A DNA stretch of 64,000 bases from Giardia intestinalis (Eukaryota): the NCBI GenBank assembly GCA_000002435.2, contig CM018793.1; one strand, given 5' to 3'. Below the pieces are notes generated by a model. The model made no database searches. It worked only from the letters and a program-made list of their open reading frames with translations, and was not told the DNA's origin. A program made the translations under genes and the position numbers. Positions 4,845 to 31,704 of this stretch are shown here, in pieces. Numbering within the stretch: the stretch's first letter is position 1; the number at the start of each line of letters is the position of its first letter.

Positions 4845-4862
4845 TTTATTTTTGAAAGGTTT

Positions 4863-7525: not shown

Positions 7526-7636
7526 ATCTGAGATTGTCAATGTACTTTCCCCGTATCAATGGATATACTTATGACACTGGATTCAGAAGTAGGAACTGGC
7601 ACAAGTGCAATTTACTGCACGCGTCTCTGAGAATAT

Positions 7637-9746: not shown

Positions 9747-9862
9747 TCGGCCACGGCGAATTTCTAGTTATAGAGATTATCGTAAATACTACAGTTGCCT
9801 CTACAGTAAAGTACCTTTGCATCCATAAAAACCTCTAAACTAAAATCAGTAAAAAGGGGACT

Positions 9863-11938
9863 ATGGAGAATTGTTCGCGAGTGTCCTCATATCCAAAGAT
9901 TGCTCACACCTCAACAGATGGCCCCATTACTTATGTTATTGGGCACAAAAATCCAGACAGTGACAGCGTTCTATCCGCCATATCGTATACAGCCCTACTA
10001 AGGCAGCTATACCCGCAGAACTTTTATGTTGCTGCCGCTGCGGGCCCAATCACGGCCCAGACACGCTATATTCTGGACCGCTTCAAGATGGATCATCCGG
10101 AAATAGTTCTAGACATCACGCCCAAGGCCGGTGCGTTTGCACGCCCTAACCTAATAACCATCAACGAGACAGACAGCATAGTCCGCGCCTTGGAGCTTTA
10201 TGCCAAGTTTCAGTTCAAGGTCATCCCCGTGGTGAACGCCGAAGGCTCATTTGGCGGGTTTCTCTCCTTGACGGATATCTTTAGTGCCTTTCTCCGGCCG
10301 CGTACTGAACGAGAACTTCGGATGGTTTATACAAGCGTGGGATCTATCCTGAATGCAGTGAGGGGGAAGTATCTCGGAAAGGTATCCCTTGTGAATGACG
10401 TGCCCACTCACCGGCTCATTTACACGCTCTCTATTAGCTACTCGTCTTTCATCGAGCTCACTGCCTCTATGACCCCTGAAGACTGGAAGATAGGCATCTT
10501 TGTCGTTGGATACCACATAAACATGATTCGATACCTAGTAGAGAAGTCGGCCGGGGTCATAATTATCTCTAAGGAGAGCAAAATCAACCTGATGACCGAT
10601 GATTACCAGGGCATAGACTTCTGTAGCGATTCCGAAAACGATATGGACGACGTTGACAGCCAGAGTCACGAGCTCGGCGTTTGTTTGCATGGAAGCGGCA
10701 TTGGCGACATGGAATCTAGTCGCAACTCTGCTGTGCTGAACGTTTCCTTCTCTGAGGACTCCTCACACATGGTGATTAAGCCAGACGACTGCCTTAATTT
10801 ATCTGGGTACAACAGTTCGTCGCACAATGTTCATGACGCCGGAGAGGTTGCAAGTATTGGCGAGGCCAATCTACACACTTTCAGCAAAAAGCGCAAGGCT
10901 CTTCCTGATGATCTGGTGAAGGCCATAAATGAGTCATCGACCACTGTCATAGTGACCCCGCTTGCAGTGTCCTCTACCACACTTCTAGTGAAACAATCTA
11001 CGCCCATAACAGAATACATCAATCGTGACCAGAGTCTTGTTGTCAACGAAAACGCGAAGCTCTCTGACGTAAGGGCAAAACTCAATACGGCAAAGCACGC
11101 TCATGCTATCTGTGTTGTGGACAAGGCGAACAATCGCCCTATAGGCGTCATCACTAGAATGGATCTCCTCAAGTCTAAGATGCGCAGAGTAATTCTGATG
11201 GACCACAACGAATTTAGCCAGTCCGTTGATGGCATCAAGAGTGATGGAGTGGAAGTTGTGGAGATCGTCGACCATCATCGCCTGGGGACAAACACCACGG
11301 TAACTCCCATTAAGATGACCGTCCGTACAGTTGGGAGTACATGCACTATTGTTGCAGGGATGTACAAGGAGTATGGTATAGTTCCATCAATAGAGGTCGC
11401 TAGCCTCCTTCTCAGTGGGATAATGTGCGACACATTGATCTTGCGGTCTCCTACGACAACGCGAATAGATGTCGTCACAGCCGAACACCTAGCAAAGCTA
11501 ACAGGACTACGAATTCAAGAATTAGGACCCTCAATCTTCAACGCGACATCGCCCTTAGTTAACTGCGAAGATAAAGTGAAGCTTATTAAGACAGACTACA
11601 AACTCTACACAGTTGATGGGACAGATAAAAACATTTCAGTTGCCCAGGTGGAAACAACCTCTTTAGAAGCTCTCACGCCCACTCTAATAAAGGAGCTCCA
11701 GGAAACATTGATGGATTTGCGTAAAGTAGAGAAGCTATGGGCGATTGCCCTTTTGATCACAGACGTAGTTACATCCAACTCTATCCTCATGTGCGAAGGA
11801 CCTATCGAGATAAAGGATGTCATGGGATATCCTAATTATGAAGATTACGACATGCTTTTCGAAATGAAGGGCGTGGTTTCCAGAAAGAAGCAGTTGCTGC
11901 CTCACCTTATGACAGTGCTTCCTCTTGCTGTGAATTGA
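9863..11938 (+). CDS. DHH-family (family II, Mn-dependent type) inorganic pyrophosphatase-like protein with a CBS-domain pair inserted in the catalytic domain (CBS-PPase architecture)
   Basis: N-terminal DHH motif I 'VIGHKNPDSDSVLSAISY'. DHH motif III 'EIVDHHRLG'. A DHHA2-like region follows ('GSTCTIVAGMY', 'LSGIMCDTLILRSPTTT'). Two CBS-like segments lie between the DHH motifs ('IVRALELYAKFQFKVIPVVNAEGSFGGFLSLTDIF' and 'KLSDVRAKLNTAKHAHAICVVDKANNRPIGVITRMDLL'). ATG at 9863 after an AT-rich 'taaaatcagtaaaaagggg'. Confidence 0.7.
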   Translation: MENCSRVSSYPKIAHTSTDGPITYVIGHKNPDSDSVLSAISYTALLRQLYPQNFYVAAAAGPITAQTRYILDRFKMDHPEIVLDITPKAGAFARPNLITINETDSIVRALELYAKFQFKVIPVVNAEGSFGGFLSLTDIFSAFLRPRTERELRMVYTSVGSILNAVRGKYLGKVSLVNDVPTHRLIYTLSISYSSFIELTASMTPEDWKIGIFVVGYHINMIRYLVEKSAGVIIISKESKINLMTDDYQGIDFCSDSENDMDDVDSQSHELGVCLHGSGIGDMESSRNSAVLNVSFSEDSSHMVIKPDDCLNLSGYNSSSHNVHDAGEVASIGEANLHTFSKKRKALPDDLVKAINESSTTVIVTPLAVSSTTLLVKQSTPITEYINRDQSLVVNENAKLSDVRAKLNTAKHAHAICVVDKANNRPIGVITRMDLLKSKMRRVILMDHNEFSQSVDGIKSDGVEVVEIVDHHRLGTNTTVTPIKMTVRTVGSTCTIVAGMYKEYGIVPSIEVASLLLSGIMCDTLILRSPTTTRIDVVTAEHLAKLTGLRIQELGPSIFNATSPLVNCEDKVKLIKTDYKLYTVDGTDKNISVAQVETTSLEALTPTLIKELQETLMDLRKVEKLWAIALLITDVVTSNSILMCEGPIEIKDVMGYPNYEDYDMLFEMKGVVSRKKQLLPHLMTVLPLAVN

Positions 11939-15540: not shown

Positions 15541-17247
15541 CTACTTTGGAACCCTTCCTAGTCCATCAGAGGGTCGCTTCATCGGATCACGGTATCCCAG
15601 GGCCCCGCGAATGCCGCCTGAACTGGCGAGCCGATTGGCTGGAGCTAGCGTGTTATTACTCAGCTGTAAGAAGCGGGAAGGCGCGGGATGCACGCTGACC
15701 CCTGTAATCAAAGAACTCGCCCCAAGGCGCGCTTTAGAGCCTGACAGAGCTTTTTCCATGGTCCCTGCCATCGAAATAGCAGCTGTGGAAGCTGACTCAA
15801 GTCCTTGGTTCGTCCCCATCTGCGTAAGTGGCACCGTTCCAGGGATCACAGAGCTCTGCAACGAGCTTCCATGACCATGCTTAACATCATTATGCCACGA
15901 TCCTTCGTAAACGCTCCCATCGGAGTACTTGCAGATGCCAGTGCCTTCACGAAGATTATTAGCAAAGGACCCCGTGTAGACGGACCCATCCTCGTAATAC
16001 TGAATTCCTTGGCCGTTTCTCTGGTCATCCTTCCAGGCCCCTTCGTACTTGCATCCATTAGCCTCCTCGAAGGTTCCATTGCCTTCGCGCACATCGTTGA
16101 GCCACTCGCCTCTGTAAACACTGCCATCTGGATAGCGGCACGTTCCTCGGCCAGCTCTCTTGTCGCCATTGTAATGACCTGAATATGTCTCTCCATTTGC
16201 GCGCACCTGGGTGCCTTGGCCACATTTGTTCCCTTCAAAGAACTCACCTGTAAAGCGTGTCCCATCTGAGTATTGAATGGACCCACTCCCATGAGCAAAG
16301 CCATTGCGAAACCCGCCCTCATAGACACTGCCATCTGTAAACTCTATACGGACCCGTTCGCCAAGAATCTCGTCGTTCCTGAACTCTCCTACCCACCGTG
16401 TTCCATCAGGAAGAGTCAGGACACCAGGTCCATGCCGCCTATCATTGTTCCACCTTCCTTCATAGACAGAGCCATCGGTGTACTTCATAGTTCCGGTTCC
16501 AGACCGACAATCATTGCACCATTGACCCGTGTATGTACCTCCCTGTTCCTCGCCTGGATCGGGCGCGTACAGCATGGTTCCTCGGCCATTGCGTTTATCA
16601 TCTACCCACTCGCCTTGGTATCGGGAGTTGCCGTCTACCATAGTGCCAGTGCCATGCCGCTTACAATTGAGAAAGTCGCCACTGTATATGGCTCCGTTGA
16701 CAAGAAAGAGCTTGCCTTGGCCGCACATAAGGCCCTTGACCCATTCGCCCTCGTACCGGCTTCCGTCGGCAAACTCACACGTGCCCTCTCCATCAGGAAC
16801 CTCGTCCCGGAAGTTACCGACGTAGCGTTCTCCCGATGCATATTTAAGGCTACCGTGGCCATCACTCCTTCGGCCCTCACAGAAATTGCCTTCGAAGATG
16901 TCTCCGTTGGGTAATTGGACTTCCCCCTTGCCATGTGGAAAGTCATTTTGCCAGTTACCCTTGTAAATGGTTGTATCCGGATACCGGCAAGTCCCATATC
17001 CTGAACGCACGTTGTGCTTGAACTCACCTTGGTATGACTCGCCAGACGCTGTCTCCAGCTCTCCAATCCCATGCCGCATGTCGTCCTGAAAGTCTCCTCT
17101 GTATCTATCACCGCAGGTTGCATTCGTTGTCTCCTTAAGAGTGCGGGCCAGATGTTCATTTGCAGTCCCTCCTGTGGGCATACGAGGCGCCAACTGAGAT
17201 CGACTCAGATCCGCTGCTCCAGAGCGAAACGATCCTGCGCGACTCAT
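15541..17247 (-). CDS. MORN-repeat protein
   Basis: About 20 tandem MORN units of the form Y.G.W..(D/N)..(H/N)G.G (for example 'YEGEWVKGLMCGQGKLFLVNGAIYSGDF' and 'YQGEWVDDKRNGRGTMLY'). The ORF-track start at 17262 is TTG. The first ATG is at 17247, with the AT-rich 'aaaattttaaaaaattatc' upstream. This start lies only 24-40 bp from the stop of the next gene. Confidence 0.8.
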   Translation of the reverse strand: MSRAGSFRSGAADLSRSQLAPRMPTGGTANEHLARTLKETTNATCGDRYRGDFQDDMRHGIGELETASGESYQGEFKHNVRSGYGTCRYPDTTIYKGNWQNDFPHGKGEVQLPNGDIFEGNFCEGRRSDGHGSLKYASGERYVGNFRDEVPDGEGTCEFADGSRYEGEWVKGLMCGQGKLFLVNGAIYSGDFLNCKRHGTGTMVDGNSRYQGEWVDDKRNGRGTMLYAPDPGEEQGGTYTGQWCNDCRSGTGTMKYTDGSVYEGRWNNDRRHGPGVLTLPDGTRWVGEFRNDEILGERVRIEFTDGSVYEGGFRNGFAHGSGSIQYSDGTRFTGEFFEGNKCGQGTQVRANGETYSGHYNGDKRAGRGTCRYPDGSVYRGEWLNDVREGNGTFEEANGCKYEGAWKDDQRNGQGIQYYEDGSVYTGSFANNLREGTGICKYSDGSVYEGSWHNDVKHGHGSSLQSSVIPGTVPLTQMGTNQGLESASTAAISMAGTMEKALSGSKARLGASSLITGVSVHPAPSRFLQLSNNTLAPANRLASSGGIRGALGYRDPMKRPSDGLGRVPK

Positions 17248-17286
17248 ATGCAGCTGTTCCAACGAGATAATTTTTTAAAATTTTAC

Positions 17287-20200
17287 TTATGCTAAGCCAG
17301 TCATCTCGATGTCCTCGGCAAAGGTAGAAAGACTATCCAGTACTTTAAGGGTTCGGAGTGTTGGTCTGTCGCAAACCTTCAGAAGTGCACGGCGAGCAAT
17401 TGGAAGTAGGGGCCACGTGGCCAAAATCTGGCTGATCACCAGGAAGAAGGAATCCCGCGGAACATTATCTGCCTTGCAGTAGTCTATGTTTGGGTTTCTA
17501 TATGGCATGGAATTGTCGACAAGGATTCCGATAGCAGTGGAGGCTTGCTGAACGTCTGGCTCGTACGCAGACAGCAAGTAATTACAGTACATGAGTATCT
17601 GTGACTCAAATACGTTGAGCCTTTCTCCACTTCTTAGGCTAGATATCACTACTAGCTCATTGGCGTGGGCGAACTTTTTGTTTCTACGCTGGATCTTCGC
17701 ACCCTCTATGCTAATCTGTTGTATGAATGCATTGATAATATCTTCGTTATCATTATCATGCATTAAATAAAATGCAACCTCTTTTGGTAAAGACCCAATG
17801 AATTTCCGACACAGAGCCTGAAACCTGTCTGTAAGTGATGCAGCCGTAAGTAATTGACCGCTTGGTACCATCTGGCTAGTGGGTTGTTGGAGTCTAGCGT
17901 CTATACTTGCCTTAGAAATAATAATGCCTGCTGTGCAGCCGCATGGCAAATATGCTCGAGGATTAGTAACGTAGCTGTCTGCCTGCATAAGCCTCATGCC
18001 CTTAATTCGCGCTGTCCCCCTAGTAGCCATAATGTGCAGTGGAGTTTTTACGGGGGTGTCTAGTTCATTTGTAGGGGTAGATTGCAGCTTTTTAGGCTGA
18101 TCGTTTTCATCTTTTTGGGGCACCTCTATCAGCCCAAGCGCCTTATACCTCTCTTCAAGCTTGAACGTCCTTAGAACAAAATCCTTGTCATAAATATTCT
18201 CCAAGTTGAGCCAAATGTAATCGACTGCGCTGTCACTAGATAGCTCGACTGGCAAAGGGCTTGTTGTGGTAGTGGTATACTTTAGCAACGTCTTTATTTC
18301 TTCCATCTTCTCGTCTGTAATATTTAGTGATAGAGCAGAAGAAGACTGTTGGTGTACGGGCATCCGTTCTCGAAAATTTAGAGACGACGCGATGCTCATT
18401 CCTATGTTAATGTTTGCACCCGCCATGTTTGCGATATGCAGTGAGGTATCCATCAACATATTGTGTGAGCGTCCCCCAGCATGGTGGTTGTCCTCGTGGG
18501 GGGTCCCGCGAGCATGACTGTTAGCAACAGAGACACCCTCTGTCTGCGTCATTGTTGTGTGACTACTGTGTATGCTCCTGAGGGGGGTCATAATAAAGGT
18601 TTCCACTTCCTCATTTGAAAGGAGTTTGGCACGGTAAAATGTATCAAACAGTTCCACAGGCGGGAGGCATCCGTAAGACTCGCCAGAACGTGATAGACGA
18701 GTGACCTCCCAGCCTAACTTATCAACAAAGTAACTCCTTATACGGGCATTGAGGCAGCAATGGCTTATACAAAGGGTTGCGGTTTGTTTAACCTTATATG
18801 AATCTGAAAAAATTGCCAGATTGTGCAGGAGGTGTAAAAGAAGAGGCGGAAATTTCCAATCGTGCTTGTAGTGGATAAATGATTCATTAGAAGCAGAACA
18901 CTGTGAGGATGTTTCGTAGAGATGAGACGTTGAGCAGCTCGTCTTATTAAATATATTTGAAATCGTTCCTCCTCTATGACTACAAACTGTGTGCATCAGT
19001 TTTCCGCGTGTACTAAGCATGGGGGCGTCGCCAAGGCTTAAGCCTGTAAGCTGGTAGCCGGGAATATTACTGATCAGACCAGTACCCCCGAACGCATTAG
19101 TCATGGAGTTTATTGGGTTCCAATTTGTGACTCCAGACTGTTCTCCCGCGGTGATGAAGCTGCTAGCAACGCTGTGGCATGTATACACCGAATGGATTGA
19201 TTCATCGTCATTACCGTCCAATGTTTCATTACTAATTGAGATAGAATCTTGTCGCAAATAGTTGCATGAGGGATCCAGTGACGCCTTTGCAATTATCTCT
19301 TTGAAGCCTGCCTCTGACTGGGCAATGAAGGCAATTGACCAGAGAGATGCTCTATACTGTAGCGTAAATCGATTTTCTACAGGGTTGAGCAATATCTCCA
19401 TGATTGTCTTGAAGATGCCTGTCTTGATAATCAGCTCACAGCCTTGTGGCGTTTTGGCCAGTTCTGCTAGAAGGCATGGACGGAGGTGGGTAGGTAGAAT
19501 ATTGGACACTCTGTTTCGATGAGAGGAATCCGGACCATTATACTGATTCATATAGTCGCTGAAGAAACCACACGGGTTAGACATGCCCTTATTTAGCCGT
19601 CCGGTCATTGCCTCTGTTGTCAAAAAGGATAGCGCTGAGGCAGGCCTTTCGAAGCCAATCGACGTACTGCTAGCGGTGTCCTTCTCCCTGATCTGTCCAG
19701 TGTTGGCAATGAACAGCTCACGAAACGCAGGTGGCATGTCAATCGACGAGTAGGGCAGATAAAGACTAGACCTTCCTAAACGTGTGTGATGTGGCATCAC
19801 CAAGTGGTCATACATTAGCTCGTCAGCTTTGTAAAAGGTTAATGATGCCGCGTCCCCCCTAACTCTATATGGAATTTTTTCTTGGAAAAAAGCTGGCAAG
19901 GAGTAATTCTGTGCAATTCCCAAATCAATATTCGAGTATATTCTTGCCTCTAGATTAAGGGTCCACTCCATGGCTGGAGCAAGACCATTGGCCCAATATT
20001 CCAGTAGAGGCATAAGAATGTTCTTTTCATCTTTAATGTAATGCAATCCTGCAGGACAGGAAGCCAACCGTTCGATAAGAACCTCTCCTATTCGACCATA
20101 TGTCACAAAAGATGGTTTTAGTGACACTATATATTCAAGAATAAGCACATTCTTTTCAGAACTAAGCTCCTCTAAGGCAATAAGGGCACAGATTGCTATT

Positions 20201-23200
20201 TCGGTAATAGGGTCGCGGCATTGCGCTACCAAACACTCTGCTGCCCAAAAGACATCGTTGAGTGTCTTGAGTTGTATAGAGTGGGACCTGAGATCTACAA
20301 AGTGGTGTTCAAACACAGAGAGGCAGGAAGAACAGAGACACGTAACATTATATTCCTTGAGAAACGTGTGTCTCTGTCTCACCATTGCCGCAATGTGGAA
20401 TGTCGAAAAATATCGCGTGCTAACGTTACTGCTTTTAAGAGCCTCTACCATGCACTCCCGGGACTCTTTGTTCAACTCACTGAATAGGATATTAAAGTGG
20501 TCGGTGGGATCAATATCATGGATTGTCAGCGACTTGTCGGGTGTTGCTCTTTTCTGTTCCACTACACCAGGGCTTAGCATATTTGCCACATTCGTTGATC
20601 CTCCAGTTTCATCCTTATTATCCCTCAAGCTGTGGTTCATGATATCGGCTTTTTCTGAGGTTGACGAATATAGCTCCACGATTCCGGGGAGCAGTGAAGT
20701 TTGGGTAAGTGATGCAGAATAGTTTAGTGACATAACTAAGTGCTGAGCCAATTCTGGTCGTGTATCTTGCTTGATGAGTTGCTTGATTGGCTTCCAAAGA
20801 CTGTCCGTCCGACCAGTTGATAGATTTAATGACGCCATTATATAAAGCCCTAGATCTGTTGATGATAGTACTCCGATCGCAGCAACCGCCCCCAAAGATA
20901 GATTTGCTTTGTAATTTTCCTTTGAGAGTAGCCCTTCATCCTTAGAGGCACTGTCTAAGATGTCATACAGTACCGAAGCAAGCCTTGACTTTCTAATTAA
21001 CGCAATACCTTCCGGGTGGCGCACTAGTAAAGAGAGCATGCCTATGCAAGTTCTGCAGATGTACAGTGTATACTCTGTTACTGGTAGTTCAAATAGAGCG
21101 CCTAACTTAAGGTCGCTGCACTGCTTGTACAGCTCTAAACTCTGCATTTCGGAGCTATCCTGATCTCCACCGATGGATTGCAACAGTAAAGTAGACGGTG
21201 CGGACCCGGGTGTGTACCCAGCAACGATAGGAACAAGCGACTTTGACCCAGCGGCCCCGGTCCTTTCTTCGGTAAATCCTTCTGGTAAGTTAGCCATGGT
21301 TATCGAAGTAGCGGCATCAAGATTGAGCTTCTTGTAGTTAGCACGCTTCAATTTCTGTATCGAGTCATGAGATTGCTTTATAGTTCCATCCATGAAGCTA
21401 AGAATATTTTCAAAAATGGGTGTTACCTTGGTCCACACAGACTTAACTTCTGCCTGTGTTTCTCCTGCATGCCCGAACTGATTGCTGAGGAAACCAATGA
21501 GTGCCGATATTGAGTTCCATCCCCAGTAGCTGGGATAATCGCTGAGTTCTCCTGACTTGAGAAAAGAGTCAATACGAAAGTAATAGAAATCAAAACCAGT
21601 CTTGCACTCAACGGACGAAATCCCTACTCTTAGGCCGCCCTTTGTTGAGGTAAGGTGTACAAACAATTTTTGAATGGCTTGGTCTAAATAGTTAAGACGA
21701 ATTCTATACAATTCTAGATTGATGTGAAGTATTCGCTCCTTCAACATTTTCTTAGCAAACCCGTTGTCATTGATTGCAATGTATGTCTTTATTATATCTG
21801 AAAACTTCAGTTTAGAACGCGTCTCCACAAGCTGACGCAATCGTTCAAACAGACTATCTTCTGAAAGGTTATTTCCATGCCGCTCGAGCTCCTTTTCATG
21901 TATGTAATGGTGAAGGTCAATTTGCTGCTGAGAAAGATTAATCTGATTGACATACTGATTAAAGTATCCTTGAGTAAACACAAATTCGTACATCTCTGCA
22001 TAAATAGAGATCGAGCGCTGGAAATTTAAGAAGGAATTGTATGCAAGAGAGCCTGAGCTGGAGCCTGACCACAGCCTAGAAAGCCCTGTGGTGTTGAGAT
22101 TGGCCTTGCTCTTTTCACACAAGTTGCCAATATAATAGCTGATTAGACTGGATAAAGAGATGATAGGATTAGAGTAAGTTCTTGGGAGTAGCTGGACACA
22201 CTTAGACAGGAAGAGCGTGAGCAGCATGAGAGCAGGTCCGTATGACATAGAGGAATCGGACATTAGCTCCCAGCAGAGCACCTCAACGAGCCCAGCTCTG
22301 GCTAGTGTTATTAAGACCCACATCATGTGGTCTGCTGTGATGTCACTATCGGTGTAGCTACCATAGCTAGACGGACAGCCCAGAGAGGCAAGGTATAGCT
22401 CGTCGATAAACAGGAGTTCTAGCAAGTTAAGTTCTGACGTCACCATACCAGAAAATGAGGCACTCATCGTCATGCTAAAGTTAGGACTGATCTCCATTGC
22501 AAGAGCTGCAAGAGCACCATAGTTAGATGAACTGTACATGTACACATCGCCTAGGCCGGGGCATCCCTTACTGCTATAGCTAGAACGCTGAGCAACAGGA
22601 ACCTCCTGGGATTCAATAACGCTATTGGTCTGGGACGATTCATTAACGAAGTTAGATAGGTACCGCAGATGGCTTGGCTGAAGCTGGGCTGAGGTGTTGG
22701 CTTTCTGCTTGCTGCGCAAAGTCGTTGTGCTCGTTAATAGGTTTCCCTTAGTCTCTGCCAGCCGCAGCCCTGCAGTACTCTTTGTCTGTTGAATTCCCAA
22801 CTTGTTTCCTGGGGAGTTTGACAAGCTTAGCTCAGTCAGCGCAATGGCACTTTGAAATCTATGCAATTCCGTACTAGGATATGTTGTACTATTCTTCAGA
22901 GAAAGGAGCTGTGCTGGACTAACAAACTTTTGCATAAACCGAGATTTAAATATACGTTTATCTCCAAGGATATCAAATAAGAGTTCATAGATAGCTCGCT
23001 TTGTCCCATCGAAGTCTTTGAGCGTTAGAAGATTATTCAATACCCCCTTAAGCCCGCACGGCAGAGACAATAAATATAGAAGGCCGGTATGAGTAGATAG
23101 AAGGCAGTACAAAAGATGTTTAGTGATTTCTGTCCGTGACGAAACTCGAACTGTTTTAGAACCGGACTGGTACTCAAAGTTCTGGGGCTGCTTTTTAAGT

Positions 23201-24690
23201 CGCGCATCAACTGCTTCTTGTCGCACACGGCACATATGAGAGATAAGCTTTTTCCCCACTTGGGTTATGGATGCATCTGCATCATTTGCTAGTGCTGTGG
23301 ATGCTCCAAAGCCACCTGCTTTAAGGGAGGACGGACCTGTGTTGAGACTCCTTTGCTTCTTACCGTGAACATCTGTCTTAGCATGCTTATCAGCGGGGTG
23401 GCCTGGTCGCAAACCCTCACTCACAAAAAACATATCCATGGCTCGTTGCTGCGCTCCATTCTTTTGTCTAATCTCTTCATAGAGAGCAGATTCCCTTTTT
23501 TGTAACTCTTCAATCTGTGCTGACAGGCCAGTGTACTTCTCTATATATGCAGTTTTTGCGGATTGAATCTGCACCAGCTTACTCTCTAACTCTGCTCTCT
23601 TATGATCTTCAATTTGATGAGAATGCTGAGCTGATAGGAGGTCTTTCCGTGTAGTGATCTCCAATTGATGTTTAGAGCTATCATCACCGAGAGTATTTAG
23701 AATTTTCTGATAATTGTGGACAATATGTGACAAATTGCGTATAGAGTTGTTGGTGGAATCGAGCTCTTCGGAAAGTGCAAGCATCATATCGGAAGTGTTC
23801 TGGATTGCTTTTTCAATTGTCTGTCTATTGGACTCCAAAATCCTGAGCTTTAGGGCAACATCATCAAGGTCTCTCTGTATGTCTTCTGCTTCACGTAAAT
23901 ACTCGGTATTGGAGGGTCTATTCTGAGTCTCCTCATCATCATCAGGTATCTCCGTCTTCGTGCATAACGGAACAAGGAGTCTATCTACGTTGTGCTTTAT
24001 TTTTGTGTCCTCTTCAGGGGTTCTTTTGGAGGATATGAGCCTCAGAATAACGGCAGAATTAATATACACTTCGTTAATTCTTTCAGGCTCAGTCAGTTGG
24101 TCAAAGAATACGCGCATGGCAGGCTCTGAATTACTAACTCCATATATAACCATCTGCTGGCATAGCGCCATACACTCTAGTTGCAAAGCATCTGCCTTAT
24201 CCGTGGCAATCGACGCTACGGCATTGATTATTGCTGTAGAAATACCCTTGGGGTCAACCGATATCATAGCGCCTATGCAATCTGTTAGACAGGTGTCTTC
24301 TGTGCTGTGATCTAGACTGTGTATTTCCAAGTGCCGCGCCATTAGAATCTGGCATCCATTCCGCAAAAGGCGTCGGGGAACCTTAGATCCTTCGAAGCAC
24401 AATGCGGTGATAAGCTTAAAAAGCGCTCTTTGAGTAAGACGGTACTGGGTTAACATCAGCGTCCTTATAGCTATGGAAATCTCAGTGGCTGCCTTATTTA
24501 TCTGGTTCTGCAAGTCCTTTGCTGCCGCAGCAGACCTCGTCATCTCCATGGATATGTACTCTATCAAGACGGCAATAGCGTCTGGGAGGACACGAAAATG
24601 CCGGACATTTTCTTCGTATTGCTCAAAGTGTGTGGCATACTGGATCAACGGAGTAAAGTTCTGTTCAAATGGAGTTAGATCATAAGTCAT
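17287..24690 (-). CDS. Very large (~2,468 aa) protein, probably a Rictor-like TORC2 scaffold
   Basis: Three collinear blocks resemble conserved Rictor regions. 'LPCGLKGVLNNLL...KRAIYELLFDILGDKRIF' resembles 'CIPNMEIRRGLLEVLYDIFRLP' in RICTOR_N. 'CIGMLSLLVRHPEGIALIRKSRLASVLYDIL' resembles 'FIGTLSCHPHGVKMLEKCSVFQCLLNL' in RICTOR_M. 'LVMSLNYSASL' resembles 'LTVSSLDYSRDGL'. 'YRASLWSIAFIAQSEAGFKEII' resembles 'KASLWALGNIGSSNWGLNLL' in RICTOR_V. There is an N-terminal coiled-coil insertion. The ORF-track start at 24702 is TTG. The first ATG is at 24690 and is preceded by 'ttgtaaattatttggg'. Confidence 0.6.
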   Translation of the reverse strand: MTYDLTPFEQNFTPLIQYATHFEQYEENVRHFRVLPDAIAVLIEYISMEMTRSAAAAKDLQNQINKAATEISIAIRTLMLTQYRLTQRALFKLITALCFEGSKVPRRLLRNGCQILMARHLEIHSLDHSTEDTCLTDCIGAMISVDPKGISTAIINAVASIATDKADALQLECMALCQQMVIYGVSNSEPAMRVFFDQLTEPERINEVYINSAVILRLISSKRTPEEDTKIKHNVDRLLVPLCTKTEIPDDDEETQNRPSNTEYLREAEDIQRDLDDVALKLRILESNRQTIEKAIQNTSDMMLALSEELDSTNNSIRNLSHIVHNYQKILNTLGDDSSKHQLEITTRKDLLSAQHSHQIEDHKRAELESKLVQIQSAKTAYIEKYTGLSAQIEELQKRESALYEEIRQKNGAQQRAMDMFFVSEGLRPGHPADKHAKTDVHGKKQRSLNTGPSSLKAGGFGASTALANDADASITQVGKKLISHMCRVRQEAVDARLKKQPQNFEYQSGSKTVRVSSRTEITKHLLYCLLSTHTGLLYLLSLPCGLKGVLNNLLTLKDFDGTKRAIYELLFDILGDKRIFKSRFMQKFVSPAQLLSLKNSTTYPSTELHRFQSAIALTELSLSNSPGNKLGIQQTKSTAGLRLAETKGNLLTSTTTLRSKQKANTSAQLQPSHLRYLSNFVNESSQTNSVIESQEVPVAQRSSYSSKGCPGLGDVYMYSSSNYGALAALAMEISPNFSMTMSASFSGMVTSELNLLELLFIDELYLASLGCPSSYGSYTDSDITADHMMWVLITLARAGLVEVLCWELMSDSSMSYGPALMLLTLFLSKCVQLLPRTYSNPIISLSSLISYYIGNLCEKSKANLNTTGLSRLWSGSSSGSLAYNSFLNFQRSISIYAEMYEFVFTQGYFNQYVNQINLSQQQIDLHHYIHEKELERHGNNLSEDSLFERLRQLVETRSKLKFSDIIKTYIAINDNGFAKKMLKERILHINLELYRIRLNYLDQAIQKLFVHLTSTKGGLRVGISSVECKTGFDFYYFRIDSFLKSGELSDYPSYWGWNSISALIGFLSNQFGHAGETQAEVKSVWTKVTPIFENILSFMDGTIKQSHDSIQKLKRANYKKLNLDAATSITMANLPEGFTEERTGAAGSKSLVPIVAGYTPGSAPSTLLLQSIGGDQDSSEMQSLELYKQCSDLKLGALFELPVTEYTLYICRTCIGMLSLLVRHPEGIALIRKSRLASVLYDILDSASKDEGLLSKENYKANLSLGAVAAIGVLSSTDLGLYIMASLNLSTGRTDSLWKPIKQLIKQDTRPELAQHLVMSLNYSASLTQTSLLPGIVELYSSTSEKADIMNHSLRDNKDETGGSTNVANMLSPGVVEQKRATPDKSLTIHDIDPTDHFNILFSELNKESRECMVEALKSSNVSTRYFSTFHIAAMVRQRHTFLKEYNVTCLCSSCLSVFEHHFVDLRSHSIQLKTLNDVFWAAECLVAQCRDPITEIAICALIALEELSSEKNVLILEYIVSLKPSFVTYGRIGEVLIERLASCPAGLHYIKDEKNILMPLLEYWANGLAPAMEWTLNLEARIYSNIDLGIAQNYSLPAFFQEKIPYRVRGDAASLTFYKADELMYDHLVMPHHTRLGRSSLYLPYSSIDMPPAFRELFIANTGQIREKDTASSTSIGFERPASALSFLTTEAMTGRLNKGMSNPCGFFSDYMNQYNGPDSSHRNRVSNILPTHLRPCLLAELAKTPQGCELIIKTGIFKTIMEILLNPVENRFTLQYRASLWSIAFIAQSEAGFKEIIAKASLDPSCNYLRQDSISISNETLDGNDDESIHSVYTCHSVASSFITAGEQSGVTNWNPINSMTNAFGGTGLISNIPGYQLTGLSLGDAPMLSTRGKLMHTVCSHRGGTISNIFNKTSCSTSHLYETSSQCSASNESFIHYKHDWKFPPLLLHLLHNLAIFSDSYKVKQTATLCISHCCLNARIRSYFVDKLGWEVTRLSRSGESYGCLPPVELFDTFYRAKLLSNEEVETFIMTPLRSIHSSHTTMTQTEGVSVANSHARGTPHEDNHHAGGRSHNMLMDTSLHIANMAGANINIGMSIASSLNFRERMPVHQQSSSALSLNITDEKMEEIKTLLKYTTTTTSPLPVELSSDSAVDYIWLNLENIYDKDFVLRTFKLEERYKALGLIEVPQKDENDQPKKLQSTPTNELDTPVKTPLHIMATRGTARIKGMRLMQADSYVTNPRAYLPCGCTAGIIISKASIDARLQQPTSQMVPSGQLLTAASLTDRFQALCRKFIGSLPKEVAFYLMHDNDNEDIINAFIQQISIEGAKIQRRNKKFAHANELVVISSLRSGERLNVFESQILMYCNYLLSAYEPDVQQASTAIGILVDNSMPYRNPNIDYCKADNVPRDSFFLVISQILATWPLLPIARRALLKVCDRPTLRTLKVLDSLSTFAEDIEMTGLA

Positions 24691-24749: not shown

Positions 24750-26399
24750 CTAGTCTTGGGATTCTAGTGCAGTGCAGAGGGCGCTGGTAAACTTATCATG
24801 AAAGTAACGGGCAGAGTATGTGTCTGCGGTCCAGCCGTTTATGTCGACCATTGAGCCTTCATCTATCAGAAGCGGTATGCACTCTACGTTGCCTTTCATT
24901 GCCGCATACATTAGTGCCGTACGCTGCTGCCTATCCTGCATCATTTTCTGTGTCGGAGCATACTTCTTGACCGCCTCGATGTCGTTGCAAAAGGAGGCCA
25001 CCATCAGGTCAGTCATTCCGATTAACTCTCGCTCCTTAGAGGATCGCATAAGAAGCTGTGCCGAGTTATAGAAGGCTAGCTGCAAAGCAATGTTGAGCGC
25101 GGTATCCTCGAACTCAGTCTTCAAGCCCGCCTCCTCCATGCAGAGAGAGACCAATTCTGTGTTATCACTTTGCAGAGCAGTCATCAGGGCGGTGGATCCA
25201 TCCTTCCTGACAATGAGCTTTTCATACGGAAACAAGCGGGTGGCTATATCCAAAAGACCGAGAGAAGTGGCGATAATGAGCGCCGTAGTGCCAAGATTGT
25301 CTTGCTTACGGGCTTCCTTAGAAATAAGGAGATCGACGGCTTCTCGACAGTTAGCCTCGACAGCAAACATAAGGGCAGTCTTCCCTGTTGAGCTTTGCAT
25401 TTCTGCTTCATGACTTATTAGTTCCTTGATCACATCTATATGCCCAGCCTGTGTTGCAAACATGAGGGCTGTCATGCCTTGGTTATCCCTTATGCCTTTC
25501 TCCTTTGGTATCAGCAGCCTGACCCCATTGAGGTCTCCGGCTCGAGCAGCAATCATCAGTGCTGTACGGCCCTCTGCGTTTGCCCAACTAGAGATCTTCG
25601 GTATCAAGGCTGCAGACTGGGCGACGGTTCCGGATAATGCAGCGAACATTAACGCAGTGTTATCGTTATCGTCAACATACTGAGCTTCATGTTTTGTGAG
25701 AATGTTAATGGCATCTGTACTCCCCTTCTTAGAGGCCCTCATCAACGCAGTTAGGAATCCATTGTCGCGCATGCCCACCTCCTTGAGCAAAAGACTCACG
25801 ATGCCACCATGATTATGTATGGCTGCAAACATTAGTGCTGTTATGCCACTGTTGTTCCGCATCTTTAGCTCATGTTTAACGAGAATCTTCACACACTCTA
25901 TGTGCCCAGCCAGCGCTGCAAACATCAATGCCGTCATGCCACCAGCCGCCTGACATTTTGCATACTGAATATACTGATGCACCGCTGCAACGTTGCCAAC
26001 GAACGACTCCCACATGAGGGGAGTGATCTTTGCCTTGGCCTGCTCAAGAGGGTAGAGCACCTCTGCTATCTTATGCTGTCTGTGCTGCATTGCAAGTTCT
26101 AAAGCAGTCATCCCATTGTCTGCGCTAATATTGACCTCATTCGAGAGGCACTGAAGGATTTCCACGGATCCCTTTTCAGTGGAATACATCAGCGCTGTGT
26201 AGCCCCTGCGGTCTCTCATGGTGGACTCATGAGGTGCAAGCAGTGAAACAGCGCCCAAGTGCCCGTGTGATGCCGAAATCATAAGTGCTGTGGTACCAGC
26301 AGCCGTAGCCTTTCGGTGACAATTTGTGAGACGGCGCAGGACAGCGACGTCTCCTGTCTCTGCAGCAGACATATAGGCCTGAAAGGCATCGTCCGTCAT
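24750..26399 (-). CDS. Ankyrin-repeat protein (Giardia 'Protein 21.1'-type), 549 aa
   Basis: Almost entirely tandem ANK repeats (G.TALM.AA..GH...V..L...). ATG at 26399. Confidence 0.8.
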   Translation of the reverse strand: MTDDAFQAYMSAAETGDVAVLRRLTNCHRKATAAGTTALMISASHGHLGAVSLLAPHESTMRDRRGYTALMYSTEKGSVEILQCLSNEVNISADNGMTALELAMQHRQHKIAEVLYPLEQAKAKITPLMWESFVGNVAAVHQYIQYAKCQAAGGMTALMFAALAGHIECVKILVKHELKMRNNSGITALMFAAIHNHGGIVSLLLKEVGMRDNGFLTALMRASKKGSTDAINILTKHEAQYVDDNDNTALMFAALSGTVAQSAALIPKISSWANAEGRTALMIAARAGDLNGVRLLIPKEKGIRDNQGMTALMFATQAGHIDVIKELISHEAEMQSSTGKTALMFAVEANCREAVDLLISKEARKQDNLGTTALIIATSLGLLDIATRLFPYEKLIVRKDGSTALMTALQSDNTELVSLCMEEAGLKTEFEDTALNIALQLAFYNSAQLLMRSSKERELIGMTDLMVASFCNDIEAVKKYAPTQKMMQDRQQRTALMYAAMKGNVECIPLLIDEGSMVDINGWTADTYSARYFHDKFTSALCTALESQD

Positions 26400-28747: not shown

Positions 28748-30994
28748 TTAGAGCATCAAGGATTCATCTGTGATTTGATCTGCATCATCGTCATCCACAA
28801 CTCGGGACAGCTCTAGCTCCAGGCGCTTCGCGTCCATCAAAGAGTTGTCAAGTCGTGCGATCTCCTTCTTCATAGTGTAGATGTCACGCTTAGTGGATTC
28901 TGAAAAGTTGTGGGCCATGCTGTCAAGCTGCTTGCGAAGCAGTTCTATGGTCTGCTTATCTGTCTTGCTCTCGTCGTACAGTTGACGCTGCATTCGTTTG
29001 AACTTGTCTAGTTCTTTATTAAGTAGAATATTTTCATTTGACAAGTCATCAATGATTTGCGTAAAGTTTTCAATTGTATCCATGAGGCCTTGATTTGTGG
29101 CTGCTACGGTAGCATCACTTGACTGTTTGTGTTGATCTTCTTGTTGGTTTTGCTGCTGTACGATGCTGTTTGTGCCCATAAAGATACTGGTTGTGTTCTT
29201 AGGGCTCTGCGCTACCTCATTATATGGTGTCGAATTGATTAGGGTGCTATTGTAAACGTTTGTCTCATTATCTGGGATAGGTATTTTGGCATTGAGGTGT
29301 TCGGAGTCGTTAGTGCCAACTACTTGATCATAGACTATCTCAAAAGCCCTTGGGGACTGAAGGCGCTGGGCTGAAGCAGGTACAGATCTCGTTAGAATAG
29401 AAGCTAGACCATCAGGGCCATCAATATTGCCCTTGAATTCTTCTCCTTCTTTATTGGCAGTTGACTGTGAGAAAAAGGAGCTATCGCTGCTGTTCCAGCC
29501 CAGCGATCTATCGTGCTTTTGATTAAGCATAGTAAGTAGCTTGGATTGCATCTGCTTGCTATAGTTAATATATGTGTTTGCAGCCTTAGAATTTGACAGA
29601 GAGCTGATGGTATCGTTTGTATTGACAGCTTGCTCCGTGTGAGATTGCATGGAGTCTGTACTTGCAGTCCAATTGTCCCTAGCTGTTAGTGTACTATTGC
29701 TGCGTACGGGCCTAGAGACAGGTCTGGATGGTGAACGTGGAGATAAAGGATTCGTACCCATGGACTTTACAAAGCTGACAATTATCTCGTTGCAGAGTGT
29801 AGTGACATCTCCTCCCGCACGCTTGATGCGTGGCGGACTACTAGTGAACGAGTGGACAATATGTGCCTCATCTTTTGCCATTGTTTTAGGAAGAGAGGTA
29901 GGGGTAACAGTTGCTTGGCGGAGTGCTGTTGGAGTTTTTTGATATCGAGGGCCACCGGTGGATGACCGCGGAGGATCGCTGGATTGAGCCTGGGCATGGA
30001 CCTGGGCCTTGAGTTGCTTTTGCAGAGACTCTGCATCTCGACGAAGCTGGTTAATATTAGTAATATACGAGTCCTTGAATCTTTCCAGTTCATGTGCGCT
30101 GTTTTGTATTGACTGAGATATGGTCACATGCTCCTCCTTAAGCCTTGAGTTAACAGACCGGGACGACCGAAGAGGCGAGGATCTAGTCGGAATGGGCGAT
30201 ATAAACAAGGCTTTGTCTGTTCGTGCGTCTGATGGATTTAGGGAGTTAACAGAGCGACCCGTTAAAGGCCGTAACTCAGCAATGGATCGGAGCTCCTTGT
30301 AGGGACTCAAGGAGGTTCCCGCCTGACCGCAAAAATCTCTATATGCCTTCTCTATATTGGGGTACTTATGTGCTAGATACTGAATATACTCGGTGGTCTT
30401 AGGGTCAGATAAACACATGCCAACAACAGATACAAGCTTGTCACACCACGTATTGGCCTCCACTGGCTCGAGAATCTTTGCCGTGGATAGGTTATTGTGA
30501 TAAAGAGCAAGATAAAAGGCGGTTTCTTTGTGCGAGTTGACAAATCCGCCCTCCTGGGGGAGTAGTAGCTCAACCGCCTTGTTCTGGCCGCTTATCGAGG
30601 CCAGCATCAGAGCCGTACGATCCCGTGAATCCCGGCGCATTACCTCATTGGGGAGAATGATTTGGATGATCTTTGCATGGTCCCTTTCGGCAGCTATCAT
30701 AAGAGCAGTTTGCATTTCAGAATTCACGGCTGAGTGACCGCTAGCAGCAAGGATTATTGCCACGTCAACACAGTTATATAGAGCACATACCATGAGCGGT
30801 GTGAAAGCGCCATCTAAAATCAGGTTGCGCTCGTACGGAATTAAGAATGATGCAATATCCACACGGTTATGCTTTATCGCATACACAAGCCCTGTTTCGT
30901 TATGTTTGTTGCGGGTACCCCGGTACTTAGTTGCATTAGCACGCACGAACGTGATATCCCCTGCTCTGATGGCATTAAACCAAATTTGGCTCAT
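28748..30994 (-). CDS. Ankyrin-repeat plus coiled-coil protein (Protein 21.1 / GASP-180-like family) with a Ser/Thr-rich low-complexity middle
   Basis: N-terminus 'MSQIWFNAIRAGD' followed by ANK repeats, then coiled coil (LQKQLKAQVHAQAQ..., and C-terminal heptads). ATG at 30994 with AT-rich upstream. Confidence 0.8.
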   Translation of the reverse strand: MSQIWFNAIRAGDITFVRANATKYRGTRNKHNETGLVYAIKHNRVDIASFLIPYERNLILDGAFTPLMVCALYNCVDVAIILAASGHSAVNSEMQTALMIAAERDHAKIIQIILPNEVMRRDSRDRTALMLASISGQNKAVELLLPQEGGFVNSHKETAFYLALYHNNLSTAKILEPVEANTWCDKLVSVVGMCLSDPKTTEYIQYLAHKYPNIEKAYRDFCGQAGTSLSPYKELRSIAELRPLTGRSVNSLNPSDARTDKALFISPIPTRSSPLRSSRSVNSRLKEEHVTISQSIQNSAHELERFKDSYITNINQLRRDAESLQKQLKAQVHAQAQSSDPPRSSTGGPRYQKTPTALRQATVTPTSLPKTMAKDEAHIVHSFTSSPPRIKRAGGDVTTLCNEIIVSFVKSMGTNPLSPRSPSRPVSRPVRSNSTLTARDNWTASTDSMQSHTEQAVNTNDTISSLSNSKAANTYINYSKQMQSKLLTMLNQKHDRSLGWNSSDSSFFSQSTANKEGEEFKGNIDGPDGLASILTRSVPASAQRLQSPRAFEIVYDQVVGTNDSEHLNAKIPIPDNETNVYNSTLINSTPYNEVAQSPKNTTSIFMGTNSIVQQQNQQEDQHKQSSDATVAATNQGLMDTIENFTQIIDDLSNENILLNKELDKFKRMQRQLYDESKTDKQTIELLRKQLDSMAHNFSESTKRDIYTMKKEIARLDNSLMDAKRLELELSRVVDDDDADQITDESLML

Positions 30995-31677: not shown

Positions 31678-31704
31678 CTTTTTTATTTTTGGTCCCTGCA
31701 CAGG
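31678..31704. promoter_or_regulatory. Shared AT-rich region (cttttttatttttgg...) between divergent starts 27 bp apart
   Basis: ATG at 31677 on the minus strand and ATG at 31705 on the plus strand flank a T-rich 15-mer. Confidence 0.4.

What the first reader, a model, noticed from the sequence alone, without database searches (positions are those of the whole stretch)
17287..24690. A 2,468-aa ORF with collinear matches to Rictor N, M and V regions: a candidate TORC2 scaffold
Three short but ordered blocks resemble the most conserved Rictor segments. '...KRAIYELLFDIL...' resembles RRGLLEVLYDIFRL. '...SLLVRHPEG...' resembles SCHPHG. '...RASLWSIAFIAQSEAG...' resembles KASLWALGNIGSS.

These are embedded in a much larger protein that has an added N-terminal coiled coil.

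If this holds, it matters for whether TORC2 exists in this lineage. Diplomonad TOR-complex composition is poorly resolved.
Basis: inference. Interest (0 to 1): 0.5.

Follow-up and report, generated by a model that had tools for sequence, protein, structure and literature searches.

The report
Giardia's Rictor (TORC2 scaffold) gene

Summary
The ORF is real. It lies on the minus strand at 17287-24690 and encodes 2,467 aa plus a stop. It is identical to Giardia intestinalis WB GL50803_0042676 / UniProt D3KGC1.

It is a genuine Rictor homolog:
- Pfam RICTOR_M (42 bits) and RasGEF_N_2 (41 bits) both pass their curated cut-offs.
- An exhaustive HMMER search of 1.84 billion proteins returns only diplomonad orthologs and bona fide Rictors.
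- A diplomonad profile hits only human RICTOR in the PDB (E 1e-9).
- Profile-profile alignment maps Giardia 517-1797 onto human RICTOR 278-941 (99.9%, E 1e-34). Giardia 70-244 maps onto human 83-259.

The 'SCHPHG' motif is at chance level and about 55 residues out of register.

The coiled coil is not an N-terminal addition. It is a ~260-aa insertion inside the RICTOR_N armadillo domain, shared by the Giardia-lineage orthologs.

None of the core claim is new. A 2023 paper names D3KGC1 as the Giardia RICTOR-like protein, and a 2025 survey scores RICTOR as present in Giardia and SIN1 as absent. That the protein works in a TORC2 is inferred, not shown. Verdict: correct, ordinary, already known.

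The parts
17287..24690 (-). Complete intronless CDS of the Giardia Rictor ortholog (2,467 aa plus TAA stop); GL50803_0042676 / D3KGC1
   Evidence: ORF list and translation. Exact-sequence look-up.
23956..24504 (-). RICTOR_N (armadillo domain) piece 1, aa 63-245; corresponds to human RICTOR ~62-259
   Evidence: BLASTP 70-241 to Hs 83-256, E 0.005. Pfam RICTOR_N 13.1 bits, profile 90-181. hhalign 84-86% probability, E 5e-6 to 7e-6. Custom Rictor-N HMM positions 17-198. AF2 gives stacked short helices at pLDDT ~85.
23167..23955 (-). Lineage-specific insertion 1, aa 246-508. Two long helices (aa 268-333 and 338-424, window 23419-23889) are read as an antiparallel coiled-coil hairpin, followed by a disordered linker. 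The insertion sits where canonical Rictors have a 7-27 aa loop (human 259-278).
22882..23166 (-). RICTOR_N piece 2, aa 509-603.
   Evidence: Pfam RICTOR_N 13.3 bits, profile 212-281. hhalign main alignment. Custom HMM positions 203-293.
22354..22881 (-). Lineage-specific insertion 2, aa 604-779: a Ser/Thr/Asn/Gln-rich segment predicted to be disordered
   Evidence: Composition. Mostly unaligned in hhalign. AF2 pLDDT below 30.
22183..22353 (-). RICTOR_N piece 3, aa 780-836; aligns to human ~385-440
   Evidence: Custom HMM positions 313-369. hhalign 769-855 to Hs 372-458. PDB profile search piece at 10.5 bits. The G. muris ortholog hits Pfam RICTOR_N profile 312-371 at the equivalent place.
20710..20946 (-). 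RICTOR_M domain, aa 1249-1327.
   Evidence: Pfam PF14666, 42.1 bits against a cut-off of 27. Custom HMM. Register check.
19987..20247 (-). RasGEF_N_2 (Rictor HEAT-like domain) segment, aa 1482-1568; aligns to human 750-831
   Evidence: Pfam PF14663, 40.6 bits against a cut-off of 27. BLASTP to human RICTOR, E 1.4e-5, 32% identity. PDB profile search piece at 30.2 bits.
19288..19359 (-). First half of RICTOR_V, aa 1778-1801.
   Evidence: Pfam PF14668, 16.9 bits, below the cut-off of 27. hhalign register. Chance test 1/300.
18706..18816 (-). Tentative second half of RICTOR_V, aa 1959-1995. If real, the V domain is split by a ~150-aa insertion.
   Evidence: Transitive evidence only. The positional ortholog P0021 hits Pfam RICTOR_V profile 28-65 at 23.9 bits. 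That segment aligns by BLASTP to GL 1959-1995, E 0.004 in a pairwise search. A direct Pfam scan of the Giardia segment found nothing.
17326..17451 (-). Possible remnant of the Rictor C-terminal helices, aa 2414-2455; weak alignment to human 1651-1693
   Evidence: hhalign E 0.012, probability 3.5%, so not significant. P0021 gives a weak 7.8-bit hit at the homologous place.
17282..17287 (-). AGTAAA, a Giardia-type polyadenylation signal overlapping the last base of the stop codon
   Evidence: Read directly from the sequence. The motif identity rests on established knowledge of Giardia 3' ends (AGTRAA).

Best explanation
The gene encodes the Giardia ortholog of Rictor (yeast Avo3/Tsc11, fission-yeast Ste20). 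Rictor is the alpha-solenoid scaffold that binds the TOR kinase and LST8 and so defines TOR complex 2.

Shown here: homology to Rictor over the whole conserved core.
- Giardia aa ~63-1800 corresponds to human RICTOR ~62-941, that is, the armadillo domain plus the HEAT-like domain.
- The Pfam domains occur in the canonical order: RICTOR_N, RICTOR_M, RasGEF_N_2, RICTOR_V.
- The protein is about 1.5 to 2 times the size of canonical Rictors because of lineage-specific insertions.
  - Insertion 1 is a ~260-aa coiled-coil hairpin plus linker. It sits in a surface loop of the armadillo domain (human 259-278).
  - Insertion 2 is a ~175-aa low-complexity segment, also inside RICTOR_N.
  - Further insertions lie between and inside M, RasGEF_N_2 and V.
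- A ~670-aa C-terminal region has no detectable similarity outside diplomonads.

Inferred, not shown: the conserved armadillo and HEAT-like core docks on the single Giardia TOR (GL50803_35180) and LST8 to form a TORC2-like complex. That complex would direct TOR to substrates other than those of Raptor/TORC1. The inserted coiled coil projects from the solenoid as an extra interaction or oligomerisation arm.

I put the homology at about 0.97. I put actual function as a TOR-bound scaffold at about 0.7.
For: Pfam:
- RICTOR_M 42.1 bits and RasGEF_N_2 40.6 bits, both above the cut-off of 27.
- RICTOR_V 16.9 bits.
- RICTOR_N gives two collinear sub-threshold pieces.

Exhaustive phmmer of aa 640-1839 against 1.84 billion representative proteins gave 28 hits:
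- The G. intestinalis P15 ortholog, G. muris, an unnamed Giardia-like ortholog and Hexamita.
- 24 others, of which 23 carry Pfam RasGEF_N_2, 21 RICTOR_V, 20 RICTOR_M and 12 RICTOR_N. They include S. octosporus 'rictor'.

Profile searches:
- hhalign of the diplomonad alignment against the canonical Rictor alignment: 99.9%, E 1.3e-34, for GL 517-1797 to Hs 278-941; 84-86% for GL 49/70-244 to Hs 62/83-259.
- With G. intestinalis sequences alone: 98.8%, E 7.6e-17. Reversed control: E 0.54.
- Diplomonad profile against all PDB sequences: the only significant hits are six human RICTOR chain sequences, E ~1e-9, in five collinear pieces.
- A custom Rictor-N HMM finds three collinear pieces in every Giardia-lineage ortholog, 26-35 bits in total.

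Other support:
- AF2 predicts an armadillo-like solenoid for aa 7-238 and a long two-helix hairpin for aa 268-424.
- Orthology is backed by synteny. The P0021 locus has the same MORN-repeat gene downstream (70% identity) and the proteasome and CAP-Gly genes upstream.
- Literature: Giardia has TOR, Raptor and LST8, and D3KGC1 was proposed as its RICTOR (PMC10418948). RICTOR is scored 'H' for Giardia WB, P15, GS and G. muris (PMC12467227 Suppl. Table 1).
Against: - Nothing here shows binding to TOR or LST8.
- RICTOR_N and RICTOR_V do not reach Pfam's own thresholds.
- The partner SIN1/Avo1 has not been found in Giardia (PMC10418948; SIN1 = NA in PMC12467227).
- The Giardia Akt hydrophobic motif (FKDF) has no neighbouring phospho-acceptor (PMC3218828). 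The classical TORC2 read-out may therefore not exist.
- Yeast Tsc11 chains in the PDB were not hit by the diplomonad profile.
- Structure searches with the AF2 model returned only generic ARM/HEAT solenoids, not RICTOR specifically.
Confidence: 0.75

Rival explanations
1. A Rictor-derived scaffold that no longer acts in a canonical TORC2. The protein descends from Rictor, but without SIN1 and with large insertions and a novel C-terminus it has been re-purposed. It might, for example, act as a coiled-coil-anchored cytoskeletal or membrane scaffold, with or without TOR.
For: - SIN1 has not been identified in Giardia.
- The Akt hydrophobic motif lacks a phospho-acceptor.
- The C-terminal 670 aa have no Rictor similarity.
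- The protein evolves fast: 31% identity to the syntenic ortholog, against 70% and 51% for the flanking genes.
Against: - The TOR-contacting armadillo and HEAT-like core is the part that is retained and collinear across all diplomonad orthologs.
- SIN1 is notoriously hard to detect in divergent lineages: PMC12467227 finds it in only a small subset of Discoba and Metamonada that have RICTOR.
Confidence: 0.2
2. A generic armadillo/HEAT-repeat protein whose resemblance to Rictor is convergent or a chance similarity between helical repeats.
For: - Single-sequence phmmer against the PDB found no RICTOR.
Against: - Two Rictor-specific Pfam models pass their curated thresholds.
- Among 1.84 billion proteins, every non-diplomonad hit is a Rictor, and no other ARM/HEAT family appears.
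- 656 collinear columns align at 99.9% probability, and the reversed control is null.
Confidence: 0.02
3. An SMC-like 'chromosome segregation ATPase', as the DH-strain ortholog ESU35878.1 is named in GenBank.
For: - The source name.
- The coiled-coil region resembles tropomyosin and SMC coiled coils.
Against: - No ATPase, SMC head or hinge domain appears in any Pfam scan.
- The resemblance is confined to ~170 residues of coiled coil inserted in a Rictor framework.
Confidence: 0.01
4. A gene-model artefact: two genes, a coiled-coil protein and a Rictor, wrongly read as one ORF.
For: The unusual length, and a coiled coil near the N-terminus.
Against: - The reading frame is open for 7.4 kb without a stop.
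- Rictor-N-like sequence lies on BOTH sides of the coiled coil.
- The same architecture occurs in G. muris, P0021 and Hexamita.
- The flanks are compact, with an AT-rich sequence upstream and an AGTAAA signal at the stop.
Confidence: 0.01

Closest known systems
Human RICTOR (PDB 6ZWM chain E; Pfam PF14664, PF14666, PF14663, PF14668)
   Same: - The conserved blocks are in the same collinear order. Giardia 63-245, 509-603 and 780-836 correspond to RICTOR_N. Giardia 1249-1327 is RICTOR_M, 1482-1568 is RasGEF_N_2, and 1778-1801 is the start of RICTOR_V.
- Both are alpha-solenoids.
- Human RICTOR is the only significant PDB sequence hit.
   Different: - About 20% identity over the aligned columns.
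- 2,467 aa against 1,708 aa.
- A ~260-aa coiled-coil insertion where the human protein has a 20-aa loop.
- A ~175-aa low-complexity insertion in the armadillo domain.
- No detectable counterpart of the human phosphorylation region or C-terminal domain.
- RICTOR_N and RICTOR_V fall below the Pfam thresholds.
Fungal Rictors (S. cerevisiae Avo3/Tsc11, Schizosaccharomyces Ste20/rictor)
   Same: - The same four Rictor domains.
- They were retrieved as significant hits by the Giardia query.
- They also carry an extra coiled-coil element. Four of the 24 hits have an N-terminal HR1 repeat.
   Different: - The fungal coiled coil is an N-terminal HR1 domain placed ahead of RICTOR_N. The Giardia one is inserted inside RICTOR_N and shows no HR1 similarity (hhalign probability 1.5%).
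- Yeast Tsc11 PDB chains were not hit by the diplomonad profile.
Diplomonad orthologs: G. muris GMRT_12072 (UniProt A0A4Z1SPF9), an unnamed Giardia-like protein P0021 (Logan SRR31929897), and Hexamita inflata CAL6015053.1
   Same: - Shared architecture, including an insertion at the same site in RICTOR_N and the long C-terminal region.
- P0021 is a positional ortholog.
   Different: - 40%, 31% and about 18-28% identity respectively.
- Hexamita is shorter (1,581 aa), and its link to canonical Rictor is only moderate on its own (hhalign 52%, E 1.4e-4).

Membership tests
Rictor / Avo3 family | RICTOR_M (PF14666) at or above the Pfam gathering score | tested here: met
   42.1 bits against a cut-off of 27, aa 1249-1327.
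Rictor / Avo3 family | RasGEF_N_2 (PF14663, the Rictor-specific HEAT-like segment) at or above the gathering score | tested here: met
   40.6 bits against a cut-off of 27, aa 1482-1568. BLASTP to human RICTOR 750-831, E 1.4e-5.
Rictor / Avo3 family | RICTOR_N (PF14664, armadillo domain) | tested here: inconclusive
   Not reported for the full-length protein. Two sub-threshold Pfam pieces (13.1 and 13.3 bits; cut-off 28.5) fall in the correct profile order. A custom 12-sequence Rictor-N HMM gives three collinear pieces totalling 26.3 bits, and 28-35 bits in the orthologs. hhalign gives 84-86% for piece 1; pieces 2 and 3 lie inside the 99.9% alignment. Homology is likely, but the curated threshold is not met.
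Rictor / Avo3 family | RICTOR_V (PF14668) | tested here: inconclusive
   16.9 bits against a cut-off of 27, and only profile positions 2-24. The register is confirmed by hhalign. The second half is supported only transitively through P0021 and is not found directly.
Rictor / Avo3 family | Domains collinear in the order N, M, RasGEF_N_2, V along one polypeptide | tested here: met
   hhalign block map GL 70-244 and 517-1797 to Hs 83-259 and 278-941. Five collinear pieces in the PDB profile search.
Rictor / Avo3 family | Specificity: database searches recover Rictors and no other family | tested here: met
   The 24 non-diplomonad hits in 1.84 billion proteins are all Pfam Rictor-domain proteins. 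The only significant PDB hits are human RICTOR. The reversed control is null.
Rictor / Avo3 family | Conserved C-terminal domain next to the TOR FRB domain (the basis of rapamycin insensitivity) | tested here: inconclusive
   Best match GL 2414-2455 to Hs 1651-1693, E 0.012, probability 3.5%. The AF2 model of aa 1700-2467 is too poor to use (mean pLDDT 41).
TORC2 (functional complex) | Physical association with TOR kinase and LST8 | not testable with these tools
   Only the literature inventory is available: Giardia encodes one TOR, Raptor and LST8 (PMC10418948; PMC12467227).
TORC2 (functional complex) | Presence of the SIN1/Avo1 substrate-recruiting subunit | not tested
   It lies outside the window. 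The literature reports no SIN1 in Giardia.
TORC2 (functional complex) | AGC-kinase substrate with a phosphorylatable hydrophobic motif | not tested
   It lies outside the window. PMC3218828 reports that Giardia Akt has 'FKDF' with no neighbouring phosphorylation site.

The most novel reading that the evidence does not exclude
The coiled-coil hairpin inserted into the Rictor armadillo domain is conserved across the Giardia lineage, and Hexamita has an insertion at the same site. It might be a functional module of a re-wired TORC2. In an organism with no detectable SIN1 and no hydrophobic-motif phospho-acceptor in Akt, it could take over substrate recruitment, dimerisation, or tethering of TOR to the cytoskeleton or membrane. 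On this reading Giardia would run a structurally distinct, SIN1-independent TORC2. A smaller corollary is that Hexamita inflata, scored RICTOR-absent in the 2025 survey, does have a highly divergent Rictor.
Probability: 0.12. Interest if true: 0.55.

Novelty: already known. Interest (0 to 1): 0.2.

Why it matters
The result confirms, with stricter tests than those published, that Giardia keeps the TORC2-defining subunit. It supports the view that TORC2 dates back to the last eukaryotic common ancestor and survives in a minimal-genome parasite.

The practical value is in annotation and experimental design:
- GenBank still calls this gene 'hypothetical protein', and one ortholog is mis-named 'chromosome segregation ATPase'.
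- The domain map given here shows which parts are conserved core and which are lineage-specific. In it, RICTOR_N is split into three pieces by a coiled-coil insertion and a low-complexity insertion.
- That map is what anyone would need for tagging, truncation or structure work.

It does not open a new question. The identification itself is in the literature and in UniProt/InterPro-derived names.

Tried and rejected
- Single-sequence phmmer of the whole protein against the PDB gave only tropomyosin-like coiled-coil noise, E > 0.4. A family profile was needed to reach RICTOR.
- The word-indexed homolog search found only G. intestinalis assemblages.
- I tested whether the C-terminal 670 aa match the Rictor C-terminus. 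The results were not significant: hhalign E 0.25 and E 0.012.
- I tested whether the second half of RICTOR_V is detectable in Giardia aa 1935-2040 with Pfam. It is not. Only transitive support through P0021 exists.
- I tested whether the coiled-coil insert is an HR1 domain like the N-terminus of fungal Rictors. This is rejected (hhalign probability 1.5%).
- The MAFFT alignment of P0021 against Giardia in the region after V was visibly wrong, so I did not use it there.
Full report
**What is there.** The window is a piece of a Giardia intestinalis chromosome. On the minus strand a single open reading frame runs from an in-frame TTG at 24702. The first ATG is at 24690 and the TAA stop is at 17289-17287. 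From the ATG it encodes 2,467 residues. An exact-sequence look-up identifies it as GL50803_0042676 / XP_037902220.1 / UniProt D3KGC1 of strain WB, annotated 'hypothetical protein'. The DH-strain ortholog is named 'Chromosome segregation ATPase'. The P15 and G. muris orthologs carry the automatic UniRef name 'Rapamycin-insensitive companion of mTOR domain-containing protein'. The gene is compact. A 59-bp spacer with an AT-rich stretch separates it from the upstream ankyrin gene. The Giardia poly(A) signal AGTAAA overlaps the stop codon.

All three Giardia strings exist, at aa 564-575, 1220-1228 and 1780-1795. I wrote out human RICTOR from memory and verified all 1,708 residues as identical to PDB 6zwm_E. 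The human strings sit at residues 324, 667 and 924. These lie inside Pfam RICTOR_N (58-439), RICTOR_M (641-740) and RICTOR_V (922-991).

I scored each motif pair against 300 shuffles of the Giardia protein:
- The N motif is reached by 15 of 300 shuffles.
- The V motif is reached by 1 of 300.
- The 'SCHPHG' motif is reached by 202 of 300, so it is no better than chance.

SLLVRHPEG falls on human 610-619, and human SCHPHG aligns to Giardia 1276-1281. It also appears as a secondary 15-bit hit of a Rictor-M HMM on the preceding helical repeat.

**Is it a Rictor?**
- *Pfam*. RICTOR_M scores 42.1 bits and RasGEF_N_2 scores 40.6 bits, both above the curated cut-off of 27. RICTOR_V scores 16.9 bits, on motif 3. 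RICTOR_N is not reported for the whole protein. Scanning aa 1-250 and aa 501-650 separately gives two sub-threshold RICTOR_N hits in profile order. They are 13.1 bits on profile positions 90-181 and 13.3 bits on positions 212-281.
- *Exhaustive search*. I ran phmmer with aa 640-1839 against 1.84 billion cluster representatives and got 28 hits. Four are diplomonad-type proteins: the G. intestinalis P15 ortholog, G. muris GMRT_12072 (40% identity), an unnamed 2,497-aa protein from a Logan assembly (31%), and a Hexamita inflata 'conserved hypothetical'. The other 24 proteins come from fungi, holozoans and other eukaryotes. Scanned with Pfam, 23 of these 24 have RasGEF_N_2, 21 have RICTOR_V, 20 have RICTOR_M and 12 have RICTOR_N. 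No other family appears.
- *PDB profile search*. A profile of the diplomonad proteins, searched against every PDB sequence, hits only human RICTOR chains. E is about 1e-9, in five collinear pieces.
- *Profile-profile comparison*. I compared the diplomonad alignment with an alignment of 13 canonical Rictors using hhalign. Giardia 517-1797 aligns to human 278-941 at 99.9% probability, E 1.3e-34, over 656 columns. Giardia 70-244 aligns to human 83-259 at 84%, E 7e-6.
- *Robustness*. A second canonical alignment gives the same collinear picture. G. intestinalis sequences alone still give 98.8%, E 7.6e-17. A reversed-sequence control gives E 0.54.

Homology to Rictor is therefore secure.

**Anatomy, and a correction.** A Rictor-N HMM built from 12 canonical sequences matches every Giardia-lineage ortholog in three collinear pieces. 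In the window protein these are aa 63-245, 509-603 and 780-836. The coiled coil at aa ~255-430 therefore lies inside RICTOR_N, not ahead of it. It replaces a loop that is 7-27 residues long in 13 canonical Rictors (human 259-278).

AlphaFold2 was run on aa 1-940 with only an 8-sequence alignment (mean pLDDT 58). It predicts:
- short stacked helices for aa 7-238, at pLDDT about 85;
- two very long helices, aa 268-333 and 338-424, at pLDDT about 88, which I read as an antiparallel hairpin;
- disorder for aa 417-513 and 580-785.

The coiled-coil insert is present at the same site in G. muris and in the unnamed relative. Hexamita has a 188-aa insert there, but my crude heptad scan did not confirm its coiled-coil character. 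A second, Ser/Thr/Asn/Gln-rich insertion (aa 604-779) also splits RICTOR_N. Further insertions separate the M, RasGEF_N_2 and V blocks.

RICTOR_V is matched only in its first third. The second half may lie at aa 1959-1995. The unnamed ortholog hits the Pfam V profile (positions 28-65) at 23.9 bits, and that segment aligns weakly to this Giardia stretch. A direct scan is negative.

The last ~670 residues show no significant similarity to the Rictor C-terminus. The best match is E 0.012 at 3.5% probability, for aa 2414-2455 against human 1651-1693. The AF2 model of this region was too poor to use.

Fold searches with the N-terminal model returned generic armadillo/HEAT proteins and SMC-type coiled coils. 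This is consistent with Rictor's fold class but not specific to it. It also explains the 'chromosome segregation ATPase' misnomer.

**Orthology.** The contig that carries the unnamed ortholog has the same neighbours as the window. A MORN-repeat gene lies immediately downstream (70% identity). A proteasome subunit (51% identity) and a CAP-Gly gene lie upstream. In G. intestinalis the upstream interval has additionally acquired ankyrin-repeat genes. Rictor itself is only 31% identical between these two organisms, so it evolves much faster than its neighbours.

**How it most likely works.** Established knowledge comes from the reviews read here (PMC5745459) and the mTORC2 structures (PDB 6ZWM, 5ZCS). 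Rictor is the TORC2-specific scaffold needed for assembly and stability of the complex. Its C-terminus lies near the FRB domain and makes the complex rapamycin-insensitive. The part conserved in Giardia is the armadillo and HEAT-like core. Giardia has one TOR, a Raptor and an LST8 (PMC10418948; PMC12467227; PMC3218828). My best explanation is that the protein docks on TOR/LST8 and defines a TORC2-like complex, with the coiled-coil hairpin as an extra lineage-specific arm. This step is inference.

Against a fully canonical TORC2:
- No SIN1 has been found in Giardia.
- The Akt hydrophobic motif lacks a phospho-acceptor.
- The FRB-shielding C-terminal domain is not detectably conserved.

The main rival is therefore a Rictor-derived scaffold with altered partners or substrates (about 0.2). 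Chance similarity, an SMC-like ATPase and a fused gene model are each effectively excluded.

**Comparison with what is known, and novelty.** The identification is not new.
[quoted passage not shown] D3KGC1 is this exact sequence.
- PMC12467227 (2025) scores RICTOR 'H' and SIN1 'NA' for G. intestinalis WB, GS and P15 and for G. muris. It concludes that Giardia retains TORC1 and TORC2.
- The protein database used here already carries precomputed PF14663 and PF14666 hits for these proteins.

What this analysis adds is modest. It gives a residue-level domain map. It recognises that RICTOR_N is split by a conserved coiled-coil insertion. It adds synteny-backed orthologs. It also hints that Hexamita inflata, scored RICTOR-absent in the 2025 table, has a very divergent Rictor-like protein. 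The Hexamita protein hits the Giardia query at E 5.7e-11. On its own it hits the canonical Rictor profile at hhalign 52%, E 1.4e-4.

**Verdict.** The gene is nevertheless an ordinary, already reported member of a known family. Interest is low. The most novel reading still open is a SIN1-independent TORC2 in which the inserted coiled coil has a functional role. It is speculative.

Noticed in passing
Protein P0023 (Hexamita inflata CAL6015053.1, 1,581 aa; paralogs P0047, P0048): This 'conserved hypothetical' protein hits the Giardia Rictor at E 5.7e-11. On its own it matches the canonical Rictor profile at hhalign 52%, E 1.4e-4, aligning to human 604-990. The 2025 TOR survey (PMC12467227 Suppl. 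Table 1) lists RICTOR as absent in Hexamita inflata and Spironucleus salmonicida. Rictor may have been missed in Hexamitinae.
   Followed up: partly
L001 (Logan SRR31929897 contig, 67 kb), gene 4001-11494: An unnamed, more GC-rich Giardia-like organism carries a syntenic Rictor ortholog (P0021, 2,497 aa, 31% identity). It has the same MORN gene downstream (70% identity) and the proteasome and CAP-Gly genes upstream. The organism was not identified.
   Followed up: partly
window 15544-17247 (-): A MORN-repeat protein (11 MORN stretches) lies immediately downstream of the Rictor gene. The listed TTG start at 17262 is probably wrong; the first ATG is at 17247, preceded by an AT-rich stretch.
   Followed up: partly
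window 44226-51812 (-): A giant 2,529-aa ORF with 17 stretches matching the Giardia VSP family (PF03302, E 2e-171). It coincides with the GC-rich block at 44-48 kb (GC 0.58-0.63). It is far longer than typical VSPs and may be a high-cysteine or VSP-like membrane protein.
   Followed up: no
window 4866-5783, 24753-26399, 28751-30994, 34178-37261, 37475-40354, 40362-42869, 54366-59345: Seven ankyrin-repeat genes ('protein 21.1' type) are scattered through the window. Two of them sit between Rictor and the proteasome gene, where the syntenic relative L001 has only one small gene. This suggests lineage-specific insertion of ankyrin genes.
   Followed up: no
window 2550-4844 (-), 9863-11935 (+), 31018-31779 (-), 32165-34018 (-), 61690-63882 (-): Ordinary housekeeping genes: Vps35 (retromer), a CBS plus DHH/DHHA2 phosphoesterase, a proteasome subunit (the true start is probably the internal Met35), a CAP-Gly protein, and an IMS/impB Y-family DNA polymerase.
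   Followed up: no
GenBank ESU35878.1 (G. intestinalis DH ortholog, P0007): It is annotated 'Chromosome segregation ATPase'. This is almost certainly a mis-annotation driven by the SMC-like coiled-coil insertion. The protein is 2,471 aa, which corresponds to the upstream TTG start in this window.
   Followed up: partly
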